Shown here: positions 2,493 through 13,625 of the stretch, piece after piece | How positions within the stretch are numbered: position 1 is the first letter of the stretch | How the letters are laid out: the number at the start of each line of letters is the position of its first letter | IMG/VR virus record: IMGVR_UViG_2681813234_000008 | Span: 1 to 13,625 of that record | DNA length: 13,625 nucleotides | Strand: one strand, 5' to 3' | Source of the DNA: a virus | Lineage: Duplodnaviria > Heunggongvirae > Uroviricota > Caudoviricetes | Made by a program: the position numbers and the translations under genes | The notes under the pieces: generated by a model | What the model was told of the DNA's origin: nothing | The model's input: only the letters and a program-made list of their open reading frames with translations | Databases searched by the model: none

Positions 2493-3320
2493 TTATTTAA
2501 CCTGGATAAATGGCGTATTGGCGCCGCTGGTCATGTATTGCGGCAGTGTGCCGTTCCATTTATTGATGGCTTCCAGTTCCATAACTCCAGGGTTCTGGCG
2601 CAGAGCTTCACCGCGTAAACGAATAGCATCGGCTTCGGCCTGGGCTTTTGTGCGAATCGCATCAGCCTGTCCGGCAGCTTCCGCGCGCAGCATGTTGGCT
2701 TCCGCTTCGCGCTGTTTTACTTCCTGCTCGCGTTGCAGGGTTTTCTGGTTTGCCGTGACTTTGGCATTAATGCTGTCGATAACGGTTGGTGGGTACTCCG
2801 GTTTACCTACATATGAGAGGCTCACTACCTGAATACCGATGGGTGTCATTTCTGCCTGAATGTCTTTAAGAGCAGCATCCAGCAGTTCAGACTTGCCGCC
2901 GTCGATAAATTTGTCGGTGGTCATTTTGCTGGCCAGTCGGTTGAGTGCGTCGGCGATCTTCTGGCGCAGGTCGGTGTCGGTAATGTCATCCACGCCTTTG
3001 CGGTAAGTCTGAAACACCGTGGTAACTTTGGATGGATCAACTTTGTAGGCCACGCCAATGTGATAGCCGATGGTTGTACCGTCACTCATCTGGAAACTGA
3101 ACGGTTCATCGTAGGTCTTCATTTGTTTGAAGGTGGGGAAGATATAAACTTCAGTATTCCAGCCAGTCCAGTAGCGACCAACACCGACCACCTCACCGAC
3201 GCCTTTGTCGTCGCCCAGTTTATTTACCTTGATGCCAACATTACCTGGTTCAACGCGATCGCAACCGACAAGGCCAATAGTCGGCAGAACAATGGCTAAA
3301 GCAAAAATAATTTTTTTCAT
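2493..3320 (-). CDS. SPFH/Band-7 (HflK/HflC-like) lipoprotein, predicted inner-membrane anchored
   Basis: N-terminal signal peptide with lipobox LVGC followed by Asp at +2 (inner-membrane retention rule). Core resembles the HflK/HflC pattern (VEPGNVGIKVNKLG ... IGIQVVSLSYVGKPEYPPTV), followed by an Ala/Gln/Glu-rich coiled-coil tail. SD AAGGA; ATGA overlap with the upstream small gene. Confidence 0.7.
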   Translation of the reverse strand: MKKIIFALAIVLPTIGLVGCDRVEPGNVGIKVNKLGDDKGVGEVVGVGRYWTGWNTEVYIFPTFKQMKTYDEPFSFQMSDGTTIGYHIGVAYKVDPSKVTTVFQTYRKGVDDITDTDLRQKIADALNRLASKMTTDKFIDGGKSELLDAALKDIQAEMTPIGIQVVSLSYVGKPEYPPTVIDSINAKVTANQKTLQREQEVKQREAEANMLRAEAAGQADAIRTKAQAEADAIRLRGEALRQNPGVMELEAINKWNGTLPQYMTSGANTPFIQVK

Positions 3321-4263: not shown

Positions 4264-4448
4264 AATGTTTGCTCCTTTGCTGGTGGAATAATCGTGTAGC
4301 CAGCTCTTTTTGCCATCCACAGAAATGTATCCATGCAACCAACGAATTCATTATCCAACAGATGTTTTGAGTAAATTACTTCACCATTTTCAATAGTTAG
4401 CAACACTCTTACTTTTTTATGTGTTATGTTTTGTTGTTTTTCTTTCAT
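4260..4448 (-). CDS. Hypothetical small protein (62 aa), proximal gene of a coupled pair
   Basis: Track ORF with GGGAGA SD about 8 nt upstream of the ATG; AT-rich codon usage. Stop overlaps the start of the 193-aa gene. Confidence 0.5.
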   Translation of the reverse strand: MKEKQQNITHKKVRVLLTIENGEVIYSKHLLDNEFVGCMDTFLWMAKRAGYTIIPPAKEQTL

Positions 4449-4644
4449 TTATTTATCTCCCATATGCTTTGCGCAAATACAGGTTGGCTATATGAAGATA
4501 AGAATCTCCATGTTGTGCAATGAGGCAGGCAGTTTTATACGATGCCTTATGTTTCAGGAAAGTCATAACATAATCTCCTGCGAATAAAGGTTGCAACAAT
4601 CCCCGGCGATAAAACCGTAATAAACATTCAGGGAATATTTATTG

Positions 4645-5010
4645 TTATTGCGCTAATTCTTTTTCGGCAGCAGATTTTGCATATTCACATGCAAAATTCA
4701 GAATTTCGCTGCCAAGTGTTTTTGTTTCGTGATTACTGGACATATGTAATACCTGTGTTGCATGCAATAAATGATAAACATTTACCGCAAATGAATCAGG
4801 CTCCAGACAAATGCCTTCATAATCATCTTGTTGTGAGGTTGTTTCTGTCATTGCTCCTGAAGTGCATGCGAGCCTGTTTTTGACAATTCTCTTTCCTCTA
4901 ATCACTATATCGGCAACATCTATTGCCTTTACAACCTCCGGGAGAAGGTCCGGGTTTGTATAATCAAAGTCATTAACATGGAGAACAGTTATGTTTTCGA
5001 ACTTTTTCAT
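4645..5010 (-). CDS. Hypothetical protein (121 aa)
   Basis: Track ORF with GAGGAA SD upstream of the ATG at 5010. It lies downstream of an HTH gene on the repressor strand. No recognisable domain. Confidence 0.55.
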   Translation of the reverse strand: MKKFENITVLHVNDFDYTNPDLLPEVVKAIDVADIVIRGKRIVKNRLACTSGAMTETTSQQDDYEGICLEPDSFAVNVYHLLHATQVLHMSSNHETKTLGSEILNFACEYAKSAAEKELAQ

Positions 5011-5138
5011 GGCTTCCTCAGCTGACTTATATGTTCTGCTATATAGCGAGTCTCAGAAGTGTTTTCATATTGAGACTGTTTCCTCAATGATTGATAAAAA
5101 TGTTCGCATGTACCTTGAGGGGCGAAGCGGCGATTATG

Positions 5139-5657
5139 TCACCATTGGTATTGGTTCTTCCGTAGAAGAGCTTCGCGAGATAAGGAGCAAACTTGTTGAG
5201 ATGCGTCATGGTGTTGCTGCTCCTCACTTTTTGGTTGCTCCGGAGGAGTAACCTCACCAGTTAACAGCCACATCGGATCGCAGCCAAGAATATTTGCCAG
5301 TGGGATAAGCATACTGATAGTTGGTTCATACTTTCCGCTCTCCCACTGGATGATAATTTCTTCATCGAGATCGAGCAGCCTGGCGAGTTCGGCGGTTGTT
5401 AAGCCGCAAGCTTCGCGTTGAGTGCGAAGGCGGGAACTAATAGTCACCATAGCAAGGCGACGGCAAGATTTAGTGCGCTCTTGCCTTCTTTGTGAAAAAT
5501 CTTCTTGTGCAAGAGAAGATGCCAGTTCAGCTGAAATTAGAAGTAATGAATATGAAACATCTCGCTCTTTCTCGGTACCTGAAGACAACAAGCAGGCTGC
5601 GTTAAGGGATGCAGAAAGCTTGTTGATGTCATCTATAGCGTCAATAAAATCGATCAT
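5139..5657 (-). CDS. XRE-family helix-turn-helix protein (172 aa) with extra N-terminal region
   Basis: Central HTH_3-like segment (GLTTAELARLLDLDEEIIIQWESGKYEPTISMLIPLANILGCDPMWLLTGE). GGAG lies upstream of the ATG at 5657; the alternative start at M70 (5450) lacks an SD. Confidence 0.6.
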   Translation of the reverse strand: MIDFIDAIDDINKLSASLNAACLLSSGTEKERDVSYSLLLISAELASSLAQEDFSQRRQERTKSCRRLAMVTISSRLRTQREACGLTTAELARLLDLDEEIIIQWESGKYEPTISMLIPLANILGCDPMWLLTGEVTPPEQPKSEEQQHHDASQQVCSLSREALLRKNQYQW

Positions 5658-5697
5658 TTCTCAAAGCTCCAATAATGCGCTGTGAGGCAATGATTCA

Positions 5698-5728
5698 TCA
5701 ATTATAATTGATAGTCAAGTATGATTTA
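5698..5728. promoter_or_regulatory. Operator-like 14-bp perfect palindrome TCAATTATAATTGA (5698-5711) plus adjacent half-site TCAAGTA (5715-5721)
   Basis: Palindrome read directly from the sequence. It sits between the repressor stop and the start of the 172-aa HTH gene and matches the site family in the repressor/cro intergenic region. Confidence 0.45.
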
Positions 5729-6211
5729 GTCTTTTTGATTGAGTTTTTGCGTGATTAGCAAGATGTTTTTTGAGTGTTCTTCCAGAAGATTTTTTGCAAA
5801 ATCCAACACCTTTACCCTCTCTTTTGTGGGTAAATTCGCAAATATTTCAAATAAATAGCTTGTATCCTCAATGATTGTTGGATCTATAGATTCAATAATA
5901 CCTCGTATCAGTTTGTTGCTCATTGAATCAAAAAGAGTTTCTCCATTCTCCCGGGTAAGTGTGTACTTAGGTTTTTCTGTGTTTCCATTTAAAAGCCACT
6001 GTACGTCGCACTGTAAGAGTTCTGATAATTTCAATAGCTTATCGCTAGTTATGCTTGTCTTTCCTTTCTCCCACAAAGATACAGCAGCCATTGATACCCC
6101 CATTGCTTGTGCCAGCTTTAATTGACTTAAACCAAGTTCTTTTCTGCGTGACAGAATCCTGTGCCCCATTGAGAGTGGGGAAGACTGACATGACTTTAGT
6201 TTTGTATCCAT
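5726..6211 (-). CDS. Prophage repressor, XRE-family HTH, no recognisable S24 peptidase domain (CI analog)
   Basis: N-terminal HTH (LGLSQLKLAQAMGVSMAAVSLWEKGKTSITSDKLLKLSELLQCDVQWLLNG). Transcribed divergently from the Cro-like gene. Track ORF trimmed to the ATG at 6211, which has a GAGGG SD. The C-terminal 90 aa show no Ser/Lys autopeptidase motif. Confidence 0.7.
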   Translation of the reverse strand: MDTKLKSCQSSPLSMGHRILSRRKELGLSQLKLAQAMGVSMAAVSLWEKGKTSITSDKLLKLSELLQCDVQWLLNGNTEKPKYTLTRENGETLFDSMSNKLIRGIIESIDPTIIEDTSYLFEIFANLPTKERVKVLDFAKNLLEEHSKNILLITQKLNQKD

Positions 6212-6291
6212 ATTGCCCTCAAGTATACTTGATAGTAAGATTGTGTTGTAATTCCTGTTGCTAAGCTTAATCAATTAATGTTGAGGTCTCA
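6212..6291. promoter_or_regulatory. Divergent immunity promoter/operator region with two 14-bp sites, TCAAGTATACTTGA (6219-6232) and TCAATTAATGTTGA (6271-6284)
   Basis: The first site is a perfect palindrome and the second is a 12/14 match to the 5698 palindrome. Each abuts the SD of the gene on its side. -10-like hexamers (TATACT, TAAGAT) are present, but promoters are not mapped. Confidence 0.5.
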
Positions 6292-6531
6292 ATGATAAAG
6301 ATTAGTGCAATTAAGTTTTATGGTTCGCAAAGGGCGATTGCTCAATCACTGGGGATTAGCGAGCAAGCTGTTTCTCAATGGCCAGAACTCATTCCTAAAG
6401 GTGCAGCTCTGGAGCTTGAGAAACTCACTGATGGCGCTTTGAAGTGCGATCTGAACCTGTACAAGAACCGCTCGCGCAAAAACAAGCGTGAATTGCACCC
6501 AAGCTTAGCGCACACGGGGGAGGAGAAGTGA
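6292..6531 (+). CDS. Cro/YdaS-like small DNA-binding regulator
   Basis: 79-aa ORF with the YdaS/Cro-type motif GSQRAIAQSLGISEQAVSQW ... PKGAALELEKLTDGALKCD. Divergent from the repressor; GAGG SD. Confidence 0.7.
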   Translation: MIKISAIKFYGSQRAIAQSLGISEQAVSQWPELIPKGAALELEKLTDGALKCDLNLYKNRSRKNKRELHPSLAHTGEEK

Positions 6532-6851
6532 TGGGCGTGTACGTTGATCGTAGAGAAATACTTCTTGATTGCGTGCAGATAGACATGCCCTCGGCTTATA
6601 GCTCAGCAGATGCTGAGTGGATTAAGCAGCAGTTACTTAGCCTGACACTCACGGCACGACAAAAAGCCATCCAGCGTTATGGCGTTGTGTATCAGGAGGC
6701 ATTTGAGGCCGAACCCATTTCGTACCGTAAGGAGAACCGGGCAAGGCATGAAGCAAACACAAGGCTTCGCCTGTTTGTGAGAAATCAGGGCAGAGCTTTA
6801 CAGGGGTATGCCGCCGAACCTCCCCTGGCTGGAACGCAATCGCGATCCTGA
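6531..6851 (+). CDS. Hypothetical protein (106 aa) in the CII position, Arg-rich C-terminus
   Basis: ATG overlaps the cro stop (TGATG) with a GGAGGAG SD upstream. No recognisable HTH, so a CII-like role is a positional guess only. Confidence 0.5.
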   Translation: MGVYVDRREILLDCVQIDMPSAYSSADAEWIKQQLLSLTLTARQKAIQRYGVVYQEAFEAEPISYRKENRARHEANTRLRLFVRNQGRALQGYAAEPPLAGTQSRS

Positions 6852-11900: not shown

Positions 11901-11930
11901 TTGACCAGACACATTGTCCGGGGCTATATT
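11901..11930 (+). promoter_or_regulatory. Candidate late promoter pR' (-35 TTGACC, 18-bp spacer, -10 TATATT)
   Basis: Near-consensus sigma-70 hexamers 5 nt after the Q stop, followed by short hairpins and an intrinsic terminator about 75 nt downstream. Confidence 0.45.
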
Positions 11931-11990
11931 CCTCACGCGCCAGCAAAATCTGGCGTCGGGATTGGCGTCCCGGATGAAAAAGGCGACAAC

Positions 11991-12012
11991 AGACGCGCCA
12001 GCGTCTTTTTTG
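11991..12012 (+). terminator. Intrinsic terminator (tR'-like)
   Basis: Stem AGACGC / GCGTCT with loop GCCA, followed by TTTTTT. Confidence 0.5.
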
Positions 12013-12169
12013 TTGTCGTTTGCACTGTCACATCTCAATGGTGGGCTGTGTGGGGGCGGAGCGATCCGCGCCGGTTCCTTTTTCCCGGTTACGCCAACCC
12101 TGCACAGTTCACCACCATACTGATTGGCGTCAGCAGTGGTGATGATTCACATAGAAAAAGGATCATCCT

Positions 12170-12658
12170 ATGGCTATTCAAATCTCAGTTGAAACTCTTT
12201 CCCCGATCACCCATAACCAAATCCCTGTCATTACTACCGAGCTTTTGGCACAACTTTATGGCACCGAAACTAATAACATCAAAGTGAACTATACACGCAA
12301 TGCCGAGCGTTTTGTTTGTGGGAAACACTACTTCAAATTGGAAGGGGCTGAGTTGCGGGAATTTAAGAACAAGGTTACTCAAAGTAACTTAGTTGCACCG
12401 CGTACAAAGCACCTCATCCTCTGGACAGAACGCGGAGCAGCCCGTCACGCCAAAATGCTGGAAACCGATCAGGCGTGGGAAGTGTTCGAAAAACTGGAAG
12501 ACTGTTATTTCAGCCAAAAACAACCACCAGCAGCACAAAACACCCCAACCCAAAATGATGGATGCGCATTACTGATCCACTTCGATAAACACGGTCAGGT
12601 CGACTTCACGGAAAAACTACCCGCCGATGCGATGGTATGCACTCTGGAACGGTTTTAA
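12170..12658 (+). CDS. ORF6N-domain protein (antirepressor-like N-terminal domain family)
   Basis: Pattern LAQLYGTETNNIKVNYTRNAERFVCGKHYFKLEGAELREFKN ... LILWTERGAARHAKMLETDQAW is typical of ORF6N/KilA-N-like phage proteins. AGGA SD 7 nt upstream. Confidence 0.65.
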   Translation: MAIQISVETLSPITHNQIPVITTELLAQLYGTETNNIKVNYTRNAERFVCGKHYFKLEGAELREFKNKVTQSNLVAPRTKHLILWTERGAARHAKMLETDQAWEVFEKLEDCYFSQKQPPAAQNTPTQNDGCALLIHFDKHGQVDFTEKLPADAMVCTLERF

Positions 12659-12760: not shown

Positions 12761-12881
12761 TGCCTGAAAAACGGTACAGGACGTTAAACGCGCTGGTGGT
12801 TGCGAATACTGGTCTTTCGGCTTGTATTTTTGTAAATCGATATATACTTATCTTGTGACCAGTAATGTCAGGGCAATTGAT

Positions 12882-13625
12882 ATGAATGAAGCTTGTTCTG
12901 TTGTTTTTGTTCATTCCCCGTTTGTTGTGCTCTTTGAAGGAAAAGAGCTCTCTCTGGAAAGTGGTAGTGCACTTCTTGTCAGGGGGGGAGCTGGATCGTT
13001 ATTGCCCTTTTCGGAATGTTTTCGGCGAATAAGTCTCAGTGAATCGACAATTATCCGTTACCTGTTGTGTGGAGACGAAAAACAGGATGTAGTTTTAGTC
13101 CGGCAAATACCACGATATCTTTGCGTGAGTTTTCCCAAGGCAGAATTGATGGGCATCCTGATTGATTATCTTTGTGAGGAAAAGATTCATACGGACAATT
13201 TAGCGGAAATGCTTTCCTTTTCGTGTCTGGCGTTTTTCTCATCAGAGAAAATGTTTTCGTCGTTTCTGACCGCGTGTATTGGCAATATTAGTGACAGGCT
13301 TAGTGCATTGTTTCGTACGGACATTGCAGCAAACTGGACTCTGAGAGATGTGTCTTCGCGGTTATGTATCAGTGAAAGTTTGTTAAAAAAAAGACTGAAA
13401 GAAGAAGGCACCTGTTTCAGTGAGTTGTTGCTTACAGAGAGAATGAGAATGGCAGCAATGCTGTTGAATCAATCTCGTTGCGCCATCAACAGAATCGCTG
13501 CTCAGTGTGGTTATAATTTTACATCTTATTTTATCAGCGTATTCAGGAGTTATTTTGGTGTTACACCGGCAGGTTACAGGATGGCTGCATTCAATGAGAT
13601 GAGTTTAAGTGTTACTCAAGAATAA
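12882..13625 (+). CDS. AraC/XylS-family transcriptional regulator, AppY/YdeO/GadX-like
   Basis: C-terminal AraC HTH (ESLLKKRLKEEGTCFSELLLTERMRMAAMLL ... CGYNFTSYFISVFRSYFGVTPAGY). N-terminus MNEACSVVFV resembles AppY as recalled from memory. Track start is a TTG at 12822; the ATG at 12882 is preferred. AT-rich gene. Confidence 0.8.
   Translation: MNEACSVVFVHSPFVVLFEGKELSLESGSALLVRGGAGSLLPFSECFRRISLSESTIIRYLLCGDEKQDVVLVRQIPRYLCVSFPKAELMGILIDYLCEEKIHTDNLAEMLSFSCLAFFSSEKMFSSFLTACIGNISDRLSALFRTDIAANWTLRDVSSRLCISESLLKKRLKEEGTCFSELLLTERMRMAAMLLNQSRCAINRIAAQCGYNFTSYFISVFRSYFGVTPAGYRMAAFNEMSLSVTQE

What the first reader, a model, noticed from the sequence alone, without database searches (positions are those of the whole stretch)
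4645..5657. HTH protein plus 121-aa protein occupying the rex position downstream of the repressor
In lambda, the genes just downstream of cI on the same strand (rexA-rexB) are expressed in the lysogen and form an exclusion system. Here that slot holds a 172-aa XRE-type HTH protein with an extra N-terminal region, followed by a 121-aa protein with no recognisable domain. A 14-bp operator-like palindrome precedes them. They may be a lysogen-expressed defence or toxin-antitoxin-like pair, or a second immunity regulator.
Basis: partly seen in the sequence, partly recalled or inferred. Interest (0 to 1): 0.58.

Follow-up and report, generated by a model that had tools for sequence, protein, structure and literature searches.

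The report
Repressor-controlled early regulator gene pair
The two genes next to this E. coli prophage's repressor are real and form a conserved pair: a regulator-type protein and a partner made of the regulator family's 'head' domains without a DNA-binding domain. They sit behind the repressor-controlled early promoter, not in the lysogen-expressed 'rex' slot, and their function is untested.

Summary
The window carries a 172-aa XRE-HTH protein (5139-5657, -), a 121-aa protein (4645-5010, -) and a perfect 14-bp palindrome (5698-5711).

The 'rex slot' reading does not hold. The palindrome belongs to a four-site operator set, TCAANTATANTTGA. Two sites lie between repressor and cro, and two lie directly after the repressor's stop codon. 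A promoter-like TTGACT-17-AATCAT overlaps the exact copy there. In relatives with other immunity types, an intrinsic terminator and a near-consensus promoter separate cI from the HTH gene. The pair is therefore probably the first two genes of the repressor-controlled leftward early operon (lambda's N position).

The pairing is real. In 161 of 168 related loci the HTH gene is followed by a protein built from module A, module B or both. Module B is homologous to the N-terminal head of many family members (hhalign 97%). Module A is fused to the same HTH domains in Salmonella. The HTH protein's head co-varies one-to-one with repressor type.

I found no toxin, defence or membrane signature, and the pair is almost absent from plasmids.

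Best guess: an early regulator plus a head-only modulator with SinR/SinI-like logic. This is untested, and the HTH domain is unusually acidic.

The parts
5139..5657 (-). Gene for the 172-aa head + XRE-HTH + tail protein. Head = residues 1-72 (5442-5657), HTH domain = residues 73-137 (5247-5441), tail = residues 138-172 (5142-5246).
   Evidence: ORF. HTH_3 E 2.4e-11. phrog_4739 and phrog_4836. AlphaFold2 gives helices 2-24 and 29-83, an HTH at 88-133 with pLDDT about 90, and a disordered tail. HTH domain pI 4.36.
4645..5010 (-). Gene for the 121-aa HTH-less partner. Module A = residues 1-47 (4870-5010), linker = residues 48-69 (4804-4869), module B helical hairpin = residues 70-121 (4648-4803).
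   Evidence: ORF. phrog_5451 6e-82. AlphaFold2, pLDDT 60: small alpha/beta module, disordered linker, two helices. Module B matches the head of P0040-type HTH proteins by hhalign (probability 97.2%, E 3.6e-11). Module A is fused to HTH-HTH in Salmonella proteins.
5698..5711 (.). Left operator, exact copy (TCAATTATAATTGA).
   Evidence: 2 exact matches, 0.00 expected. 89% identical over 18 nt to 6219-6236.
5715..5728 (.). Second left operator copy (TCAAGTATGATTTA, 2 mismatches). It overlaps the repressor's stop codon.
   Evidence: It starts 17 bp after the exact copy starts.
5690..5718 (-). Promoter-like site TTGACT-17-AATCAT reading towards the HTH gene. The exact operator lies in its spacer. 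Candidate pL.
   Evidence: 9 of 12 matches; the scan as a whole is not above chance. The position is supported by near-consensus promoters at the same place in other immunity types.
5726..6211 (-). Immunity repressor: 161 aa from ATG 6211, XRE HTH, no S24 peptidase domain.
   Evidence: HTH_3 6.9e-15. Annotated as 161 aa in strain 52F4. HTH domain pI 9.7.
6219..6232 (.). Right operator, exact copy (TCAAGTATACTTGA), between repressor and cro.
6271..6284 (.). Right operator, 2-mismatch copy (TCAATTAATGTTGA), just upstream of cro.
6292..6531 (+). cro-like gene (P22_Cro / YdaS family), divergent from the repressor gene.
   Evidence: P22_Cro 1.3e-16.
5011..5138 (-). Spacer between the two genes. No promoter-like site was found on this strand, and the predicted RNA fold is not significant. 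It is replaced by other DNA or deleted in relatives.
   Evidence: (z -0.76)..
5425..5435 (.). Mosaic junction. DNA shared with phiP27 and 300+ E. coli prophages ends here, at the head/HTH domain boundary.
   Evidence: matches end at query position 1025-1034, which is window 5424-5433.

Best explanation
The two genes are the first two genes of the leftward early operon that the prophage repressor controls (the pL equivalent). They occupy lambda's N position, not its rex position.

Expected behaviour: in a lysogen, repressor bound at 5698-5728 keeps them off, apart from possible read-through from the repressor's own transcript. On induction or infection they are among the first genes made.

The 172-aa protein is a modular member of an enterobacterial prophage family. 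It has a fast-evolving N-terminal helical 'head' that always travels with one repressor type. Behind it sit a nearly invariant XRE helix-turn-helix domain and an optional tail.

The 121-aa protein has no DNA-binding domain. It consists of two head-type modules, A and B, joined by a disordered linker.

The most likely mechanism is that the HTH protein is an early regulator that assembles or finds its partner through its head. The head-only protein would then modulate it by protein-protein contact, either through mixed oligomers or by competing for the head's ligand. SinI does this to SinR, and AimX does it to AimC.

Shown: position, operators, modular homology, conserved pairing.
Inferred: repression in the lysogen, physical interaction, regulatory output.
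For: Position:
- The 14-bp operator pattern occurs exactly at 5698 and 6219 (0 expected). Degenerate copies lie at 5715 and 6271. That gives one pair between repressor and cro and one pair right after the repressor stop codon.
- Promoter-like TTGACT-17-AATCAT overlaps the 5698 copy.
- In other immunity types the repressor-HTH spacer holds an intrinsic terminator (L148: -12.2 kcal/mol stem plus T8; L086 by eye) followed by TTGACA-17-TATTAT or TAATAT (11 and 10 of 12 matches).
- In the phiP27-type and L103-type, that spacer shares 12-13-mers with the phage's own repressor-cro spacer (0 of about 155 control segments).
- Every annotated relative has the HTH gene directly downstream of cI.

Pairing:
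- 161 of 168 loci have an A and/or B module protein right after the HTH gene.
- The ATGA stop/start overlap occurs in 52F4, L006 and L084, and an 8-bp overlap occurs in L165.

Module links:
- p121 residues 58-115 match the head of P0040/P0105-type HTH proteins (hhalign 97.2%, E 3.6e-11; tblastn 39-59% identity).
- Module A is fused to HTH-HTH in Salmonella proteins P0165 and P0167.
- Salmonella locus L169 has B-HTH-HTH, A-HTH-HTH and a B-only protein in tandem.

Head and immunity:
- Head type and repressor type pair one-to-one across about 10 types.
- The DNA mosaic junction lies at the domain boundary.

Precedents: SinR/SinI (PMC3163267) and AimC/AimX (bioRxiv 10.1101/2025.11.23.689978).
Against: - No transcript data exist. 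In this immunity type no terminator lies between the repressor stop (5726) and the HTH start (5657), so lysogenic read-through is possible.
- The promoter match is only 9 of 12, and the scan overall is not above chance (8 found, 7.6 expected).
- This window's own head (type 3) shows no detectable similarity to p121's module B (hhalign probability 0.2%).
- p121 is nearly the same (93-100% identical) next to six different head types. There is therefore no co-variation that would indicate a specific head-to-B contact.
- The HTH domain is acidic (pI 4.36). By my manual alignment to the 434 repressor, it has Glu-Glu-Ile where 434 has its DNA-contacting Gln28-Gln29-Ser30 (the contact residues are from my own knowledge). 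It may not bind DNA in the usual way.
- I found no target site for it.
- Structure models are of low to moderate confidence (pLDDT 60 and 69.5).
- The one-to-one head/repressor link could be mere physical linkage.
Confidence: 0.45

Rival explanations
1. One reading: a lysogen-expressed exclusion or toxin-antitoxin pair, transcribed with the repressor. Known examples of that arrangement are rexAB in lambda, hex in 434, and paaA2-parE2 behind PaaR2 in CP-933P.
For: - The genes are on the same strand as the repressor and only 68 bp downstream, with no terminator detected between them in this immunity type.
- The order HTH protein then small protein resembles antitoxin then toxin.
- Real precedents exist for cargo behind cI (PMC8630535; PMC3564112).
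Against: - Operator copies and a promoter-like site sit between cI and the pair. In CP-933P the TA genes lie upstream of the PL promoter and its operators.
- Relatives have a terminator plus a strong promoter there.
- No toxin, defence or Rex family match.
- No membrane segment.
- p121 is acidic and shares a domain with the HTH family's head.
- Gene spacing ranges from a 4-bp overlap to about 1.5 kb.
- Only 1 hit in 72,556 plasmids, and always next to a cI gene.
Confidence: 0.08
2. A lysogeny-establishment pair working like lambda CII and CIII. The HTH protein would be an unstable early activator of repressor and integrase synthesis. The head-only protein would protect it by acting as a decoy for the protease or partner that recognises the head.
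For: - Early, repressor-controlled position.
- phrog_4836 and the ASU11 record call relatives 'CII-like'. These are annotation names only.
- No recognisable CII in the rightward operon: the 107-aa ORF after cro has no Pfam or NCBIfam match.
- The tail is predicted to be disordered and could serve as a degradation tag.
- The partner shares a domain with the regulator family.
Against: - No Phage_CII family match.
- The HTH domain is acidic and atypical.
- I found no repeated binding sites near the repressor or integrase genes.
- The 107-aa ORF after cro could itself be the CII analogue.
Confidence: 0.15
3. The HTH domain no longer binds DNA. The 172-aa protein would be a protein-binding early factor, for example an anti-repressor whose head recognises its own phage's repressor or Cro. 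It could also be an acidic mimic aimed at a host factor. p121 would be a related head-only binder.
For: - HTH domain pI is 4.36, against 9.7 for the neighbouring repressor's HTH.
- The recognition-helix positions read Asp-Glu-Glu-Ile. Basic residues that flank the 434 helix-turn-helix are replaced by Glu, Pro and Ile (my manual alignment to 434 and P22 C2, which match at E 1e-4 to 1e-5).
- Head type tracks repressor type one-to-one.
- The repressor lacks a peptidase domain, so it must be inactivated by a protein.
Against: - No head resembles its cognate repressor (all E > 0.1).
- Helix 1 keeps the conserved arginines of DNA-binding XRE domains.
- More distant relatives have ordinary recognition helices.
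- A separate antisense-RNA-controlled antirepressor module is already present at 11924-12658.
- The head/repressor link may be linkage only.
Confidence: 0.17
4. The two genes are unrelated neighbours with independent functions. Their adjacency would reflect only shared ancestry of the phiP27-like left arm.
For: - Most loci collected are close relatives of one left arm at 93-98% DNA identity, so the 161 of 168 count is heavily redundant.
- The spacer between the genes is variable.
Against: - The pairing persists in distant relatives: L165 at 44% identity with overlapping genes, and Salmonella L169.
- Modules A and B are each found fused to the same HTH domains.
- ATGA coupling occurs in three variants.
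Confidence: 0.08

Closest known systems
SinR/SinI of Bacillus subtilis, and the phage pair AimC/AimX
   Same: - An XRE-type HTH protein carries a helical oligomerisation hairpin.
- An adjacent gene encodes a small HTH-less protein that copies that hairpin.
- In the known systems the small protein forms a mixed complex and switches the regulator off (PMC3163267; bioRxiv 10.1101/2025.11.23.689978).
   Different: - The hairpin here is N-terminal, not C-terminal.
- There is no sequence match to SinI or SinR.
- The partner also carries a second module (A).
- In this window the regulator's own head is of a different, not detectably related type.
- No interaction has been shown.
Lambda rexA-rexB, 434 hex, and paaR2-paaA2-parE2 of CP-933P (cargo transcribed with the repressor)
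   Same: The genes lie immediately downstream of the immunity repressor, on the same strand.
   Different: - Those genes lie between the repressor and the left operator/promoter and are expressed in the lysogen (PMC8630535).
- Here the left operators and a promoter-like site come first.
- There is no homology to Rex, Hex, PaaA2 or ParE2.
Lambda N (first gene of the pL operon)
   Same: - Same map position.
- An N-terminal part differs between immunity types while the remainder is conserved, as in the N proteins of lambda, 21 and P22 (my own knowledge).
   Different: - The fold is entirely different (XRE HTH rather than an arginine-rich peptide).
- There is no evidence of antitermination.
- I did not look for nut-like sites.
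Lambda CII/CIII
   Same: An early HTH regulator plus a small helical early protein. Relatives carry 'CII-like' annotation.
   Different: - No Phage_CII match.
- Both genes are in the leftward operon.
- The partner is a paralogue of the regulator family's head, which CIII is not.
phiP27 L10 and L08 (hypothetical proteins), PHROGs 4739/4836 and 5451/4587
   Same: Direct homologues: L08 is 98% identical to the 121-aa protein, and the L10 HTH domain is 91% identical.
   Different: - L10 has another head and lacks the tail.
- About 580 bp of other DNA separates the two genes in phiP27.
- None of these proteins has been studied, as far as the held literature shows.

Membership tests
Pfam HTH_3 / XRE (Cro/C1-type) helix-turn-helix | Profile match above the curated threshold | tested here: met
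   172-aa protein, residues 77-131: 43.9 bits against a cut-off of 23, E 2.4e-11. Matches the P22 C2 and 434 repressor N-terminal domains.
Pfam HTH_3 / XRE (Cro/C1-type) helix-turn-helix | Polar or basic DNA-contacting residues in the recognition helix; sequence-specific DNA binding | tested here: inconclusive
   Domain pI is 4.36. Asp-Glu-Glu-Ile sits at the start of helix 3 (my manual alignment to 434). Binding itself is not testable here.
Lambda Rex-type lysogen-expressed exclusion genes | Located between the repressor gene and the left operator/promoter, and co-transcribed with the repressor | tested here: not met
   Operator copies at 5698 and 5715 and a promoter-like site at 5690-5718 precede the pair. 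Relatives have a terminator plus promoter there.
Lambda Rex-type lysogen-expressed exclusion genes | Homology to RexA/RexB, or a membrane channel component | tested here: not met
   No Pfam, PADLOC or NCBIfam match. The highest 19-residue hydropathy is 0.90 (p121) and 1.49 (HTH protein), both below 1.6.
Lambda Rex-type lysogen-expressed exclusion genes | Expression in the lysogen and exclusion of superinfecting phage | not testable with these tools
   Needs transcript mapping and plating assays.
Type II toxin-antitoxin system with XRE antitoxin | Recognisable toxin domain in the partner | tested here: not met
   p121 has no family in Pfam, NCBIfam or PADLOC. No PDB sequence match below E = 1. 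No fold match below E = 1 (low-confidence model).
Type II toxin-antitoxin system with XRE antitoxin | Tight bicistronic unit found in many genomic contexts (plasmids, islands, phages) | tested here: not met
   Gene spacing runs from -4 bp to about 1.5 kb. 1 of 72,556 plasmids holds it. It is always next to a cI gene in the loci examined.
Type II toxin-antitoxin system with XRE antitoxin | Toxicity of the partner, neutralised by the HTH protein | not testable with these tools
   Needs expression experiments.
SinR/SinI-like regulator and head-only antagonist (mechanistic class, not a sequence family) | Regulator = XRE HTH plus a helical hairpin oligomerisation domain | tested here: met
   HTH_3. 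AlphaFold2 predicts helices 2-24 and 29-83 ahead of the HTH, at pLDDT 56-72 only.
SinR/SinI-like regulator and head-only antagonist (mechanistic class, not a sequence family) | Adjacent HTH-less protein homologous to the regulator's hairpin | tested here: inconclusive
   Met at family level: hhalign 97.2%, E 3.6e-11, against P0040-type heads. Not met for this window's own head (probability 0.2%).
SinR/SinI-like regulator and head-only antagonist (mechanistic class, not a sequence family) | Sequence membership in the SinR/SinI families | tested here: not met
   No SinI or SinR-specific Pfam hit.
SinR/SinI-like regulator and head-only antagonist (mechanistic class, not a sequence family) | Mixed complex that alters the regulator's activity | not testable with these tools
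Needs complex prediction or binding assays.
Lambda CII | Phage_CII family match; gene in the rightward operon after cro | tested here: not met
   No such Pfam hit. The gene is leftward, downstream of the repressor. The 'CII-like' label is annotation only.

The most novel reading that the evidence does not exclude
The variable heads are immunity-specific recognition modules. Each would bind its own phage's repressor or Cro, or another product of the immunity cassette. The conserved acidic HTH domain would engage a common partner. The first pL gene product would then be a protein-level commitment or cross-talk device among the many co-resident E. coli prophages. The head-only protein (modules A+B) would act as a decoy, tuning it or interfering with the equivalent proteins of rival prophages.
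Probability: 0.12. Interest if true: 0.75.

Novelty: new variant of a known kind. Interest (0 to 1): 0.45.

Why it matters
The block from the HTH domain through the 121-aa gene is present in about 6% of complete E. coli genomes (318 of 5,426), and relatives of the pair occur in Stx1- and Stx2-converting phages.

These phages have no recognisable N gene. The first two products of their early leftward operon are annotated only as hypothetical or generic HTH proteins.

Three results give a concrete, testable entry point into how the lysis-lysogeny switch of this prophage group, including toxin-converting phages, is wired:
- The pair is conserved.
- One partner is a head-only copy of the regulator family's swappable N-terminal modules.
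- The regulator's head always travels with one repressor type.

The result also corrects a tempting map-position analogy: 'next to cI' is not the same as 'rex slot'.

Tried and rejected
- **Psr idea.** I suspected the common 230-aa homologue was the prophage-encoded secretion regulator PsrA/B of O157. It is not: Psr proteins are AraC-type (PMC10877973).
- **Fold search.** Foldseek of the p121 model against the PDB gave no match below E = 1, and the model is low-confidence (pLDDT 60). PDB sequence searches with p121 and with a module A profile found nothing credible.
- **Plus-strand ORF 4991/5009-5251 (phrog_6104).** It is intact in 38 of 39 unique relatives. However, it is cut to 30 aa in phiP27 and deleted in 52F4, L006 and L084. 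The overlapping HTH tail is conserved as protein in other architectures (P0030). Codon-position counts were too few to decide. I treat it as probably not a gene.
- **RNA structure in the 5011-5138 spacer.** Not significant (z -0.76). No Rfam family there.
- **Head as a copy of the cognate repressor's dimerisation domain (subunit poisoning).** No similarity.
- **Species-representative genomes.** Two scans (module A profile, HTH profile) found nothing related. The family lives in accessory prophages.
- **Exact k-mer sharing between left and right operator regions.** Significant in only 2 of 8 types. It is too crude a test for the others.
- **Common DNA motif for the conserved HTH domain.** An inspection by eye of the repressor-HTH spacers found none that was convincing.
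Full report
**What is in the window.** The window is the left arm and immunity region of an E. coli lambdoid prophage. From the left, on the minus strand, it carries:
- integrase (75-1361) and excisionase (1395-1649);
- small early genes, including an SPFH lipoprotein gene (2493-3320);
- the 121-aa gene (4645-5010);
- the 172-aa HTH gene (5139-5657);
- a repressor gene (5726-6211, using the ATG that gives 161 aa).

On the plus strand follow a P22_Cro/YdaS-type cro (6292-6531), replication genes and a Q-like gene. The DNA left of about 5430 is 93-98% identical to phage phiP27 and to prophages in 318 of 5,426 complete E. coli genomes.

**Check of the observation.**
- The 172-aa ORF has an ATG with GGAG 9 nt upstream. 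Pfam HTH_3 covers residues 77-131 (E 2.4e-11), which leaves a head of about 70 aa.
- The 121-aa ORF has no Pfam, NCBIfam or PADLOC family. It matches phrog_5451 (6e-82).
- TCAATTATAATTGA at 5698-5711 is a perfect palindrome.

**The palindrome is an operator of the neighbouring repressor, and it marks a left operator.**
- The pattern TCAANTATANTTGA occurs exactly twice in 13.6 kb, at 5698 and 6219. None is expected (200 shuffles).
- An 18-nt stretch around the two copies is 89% identical.
- Each exact copy has a 2-mismatch copy beside it, at 5715-5728 and 6271-6284.
- One pair therefore lies between the divergent repressor and cro genes. The other begins on the repressor's stop codon.
- A promoter-like TTGACT-17-AATCAT (5718 to 5690, minus strand) has the exact left copy in its spacer.
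- On its own that promoter match is weak: 9 of 12, in a scan no richer than shuffles.

**The same place in other immunity types is much clearer.**
- L148 has a -12.2 kcal/mol hairpin plus T8, followed by TTGACA-17-TATTAT.
- L086 has a GC hairpin plus T6, followed by TTGACA-17-TAATAT.
- L103 has TTGACA-17-TATTGT.
- In the phiP27-type and L103-type spacers, 12- and 13-mers are shared with the phage's own repressor-cro spacer and with none of about 155 control segments.
- In all annotated relatives the HTH gene is the gene directly downstream of cI.

**Map position.** In lambda the order is cI, rexA, rexB, terminator, OL/pL, N. In CP-933P the toxin-antitoxin genes likewise lie before the PL promoter (PMC8630535). 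Here nothing lies between the repressor gene and the left operators. The pair is in the N position, not the rex position.

One caveat applies. In this immunity type the spacer is only 68 bp and holds no terminator. Read-through from the repressor's own transcript in the lysogen cannot be excluded.

**The HTH protein is modular, and its head travels with the immunity type.**
- Homologues are 136-265 aa long, and nearly all are from E. coli prophages.
- They share an almost invariant HTH domain: 34 invariant columns among 16 proteins with different heads.
- They differ in the N-terminal 65-90 residues, in the presence of a second HTH domain, and in a C-terminal tail.
- The DNA mosaic junction in the window (about 5430) falls on the head/HTH boundary.
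- In 168 loci from viral contigs and phage records, head cluster and repressor cluster pair one-to-one across about 10 types. The single apparent exception involves repressors only 49% identical.
- This may reflect a functional link. It may also be linkage: the head-coding DNA abuts the left operators and shares no homology across types.
- No head resembles its cognate repressor.

**The 121-aa protein is made of head modules.**
- AlphaFold2 (pLDDT 60, so only indicative) gives a small alpha/beta module (residues 9-45), a disordered linker (48-69) and a two-helix hairpin (74-120).
- The hairpin, module B, is homologous to the head of P0040/P0105-type HTH proteins: hhalign probability 97.2%, E 3.6e-11, 40% identity over 58 columns. 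This agrees with the phrog_4836 hit and with tblastn hits of 39-59% identity.
- A full HMMER scan of 1.84 billion representative proteins found only 33 relatives.
- Among them, module B occurs alone (60-83 aa) or at the N-terminus of an HTH protein (P0173, Yokenella).
- Module A occurs alone, with other C-termini, or fused directly to one or two HTH domains of this same family (P0164; P0165 and P0167 from Salmonella enterica).
- In Salmonella locus L169 a B-HTH-HTH protein, an A-HTH-HTH protein and a 71-aa B-only protein are encoded in tandem downstream of cI.
- A and B are therefore alternative heads of one HTH family. The 121-aa protein is A plus B without the HTH.

**The pairing is conserved.**
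- In 161 of 168 loci the HTH gene is followed by an AB, B-only or A-containing ORF. The loci are redundant, so this is not 161 independent observations.
- The pairing holds in a relative with 44% identity, where the genes overlap by 8 bp (L165), and in Salmonella.
- In 52F4, L006 and L084 the HTH stop and the p121 start overlap as ATGA, with GGAG upstream. These include the two loci that share this window's immunity type.
- In the window, 128 bp separate the genes. That spacer has no promoter-like site on the coding strand and no significant RNA fold.

**Evidence against a toxin-antitoxin or defence module.**
- No toxin, defence or Rex family match.
- No membrane segment.
- Both proteins are acidic, with pI 4.8 and 5.1.
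- Spacing is variable.
- One hit in 72,556 plasmids, on a 393-kb record.
- Twenty-four phage records, 23 of which also hold the HTH homologue.
- The cassette is locked to one genomic context, unlike mobile toxin-antitoxin or defence cassettes.

**An oddity of the HTH domain.** Its pI is 4.36, against 9.7 for the neighbouring repressor's HTH. I aligned it by eye to the 434 repressor and P22 C2, which it matches at E 1e-4 to 1e-5. Positions that contact DNA in 434 (Gln28, Gln29, Ser30; from my own knowledge) read Glu, Glu, Ile. Basic residues after the helix are Glu, Pro and Ile in most members. Helix 1 keeps its arginines, and distant relatives have ordinary recognition helices. DNA binding is therefore uncertain, not excluded.

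**Most likely mechanism.** The pair is an early, repressor-controlled regulator cassette. The HTH protein uses its head to assemble or to find a partner. The head-only protein modulates it by protein contact, as SinI does with SinR (PMC3163267) and AimX does with the phage repressor AimC (bioRxiv 10.1101/2025.11.23.689978).
- I put about 0.8 on the map-position claim.
- I put about 0.4 on the interaction model.
- The main weaknesses are threefold. This window's own head is not detectably related to module B. The same p121 sits next to six head types. No target site is known.

**Novelty.** No member of either family has been studied in the literature I could search. All database names are 'hypothetical', 'HTH domain-containing' or unverified 'CII-like'/'DicA'. 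The general kind is known: an XRE regulator with a head-only antagonist, among early phage regulators. The architecture is a new variant. Its features are swappable N-terminal heads tied to immunity type, a partner made of two heads, and a position as the first pL genes in N-less lambdoid prophages.

Noticed in passing
window 11924-12658 (+): Rfam finds isrK (79 bits), C4 antisense RNA (74 bits) and the c4 a1/b1 target element (52 bits) at 11924-12119. A 162-aa ORF follows at 12170-12658. This looks like a P1 immI / Gifsy-1 IsrK-type antisense-RNA-controlled antirepressor module. It fits a repressor that has no self-cleaving peptidase domain.
   Followed up: partly
window 12822-13625 (+): An AraC-family ORF of 267 aa. 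The best NCBIfam matches are YdeO (1e-42) and GadX (6e-28), both below the family cut-offs. It may be a prophage-borne acid-resistance or virulence regulator of the Psr/PatE kind.
   Followed up: no
window 4991-5251 (+): An 86-aa ORF antisense to the 3' end of the HTH gene and the 5' end of the 121-aa gene. From Met7 (80 aa) it matches phrog_6104 (1.6e-49). GGAG lies 7 nt before the 4991 ATG, and TATAAT lies at 4959-4964. The ORF is intact in 38 of 39 unique relatives but truncated or deleted in phiP27, 52F4, L006 and L084.
   Followed up: partly
window 5011-5251: This stretch (the spacer plus the HTH tail) varies less among 39 unique relatives (7-9% variable columns) than the flanking coding DNA (17-19%). 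It is unexplained. It could reflect recent spread of an inserted segment, or a constraint on the other strand.
   Followed up: no
window 6528-6851 (+): A 107-aa ORF in the cII position after cro. It matches only phrog_852 (unknown function) and no Pfam or NCBIfam family. It is not YdaT-like and has no detected HTH.
   Followed up: no
L169 2022-2647 (Salmonella enterica contig AAEEPD010000024.1): Between cI and the first head-HTH gene, two opposite-strand genes are inserted: 95 aa with a weak HTH_3 hit, and 113 aa with no family.
   Followed up: no
L024, L056, L057, L076 (about 4300-5700): In some relatives, 1.25-1.5 kb of extra DNA separates the HTH gene from the 121-aa gene. I did not examine its content; it may be an insertion sequence.
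   Followed up: no
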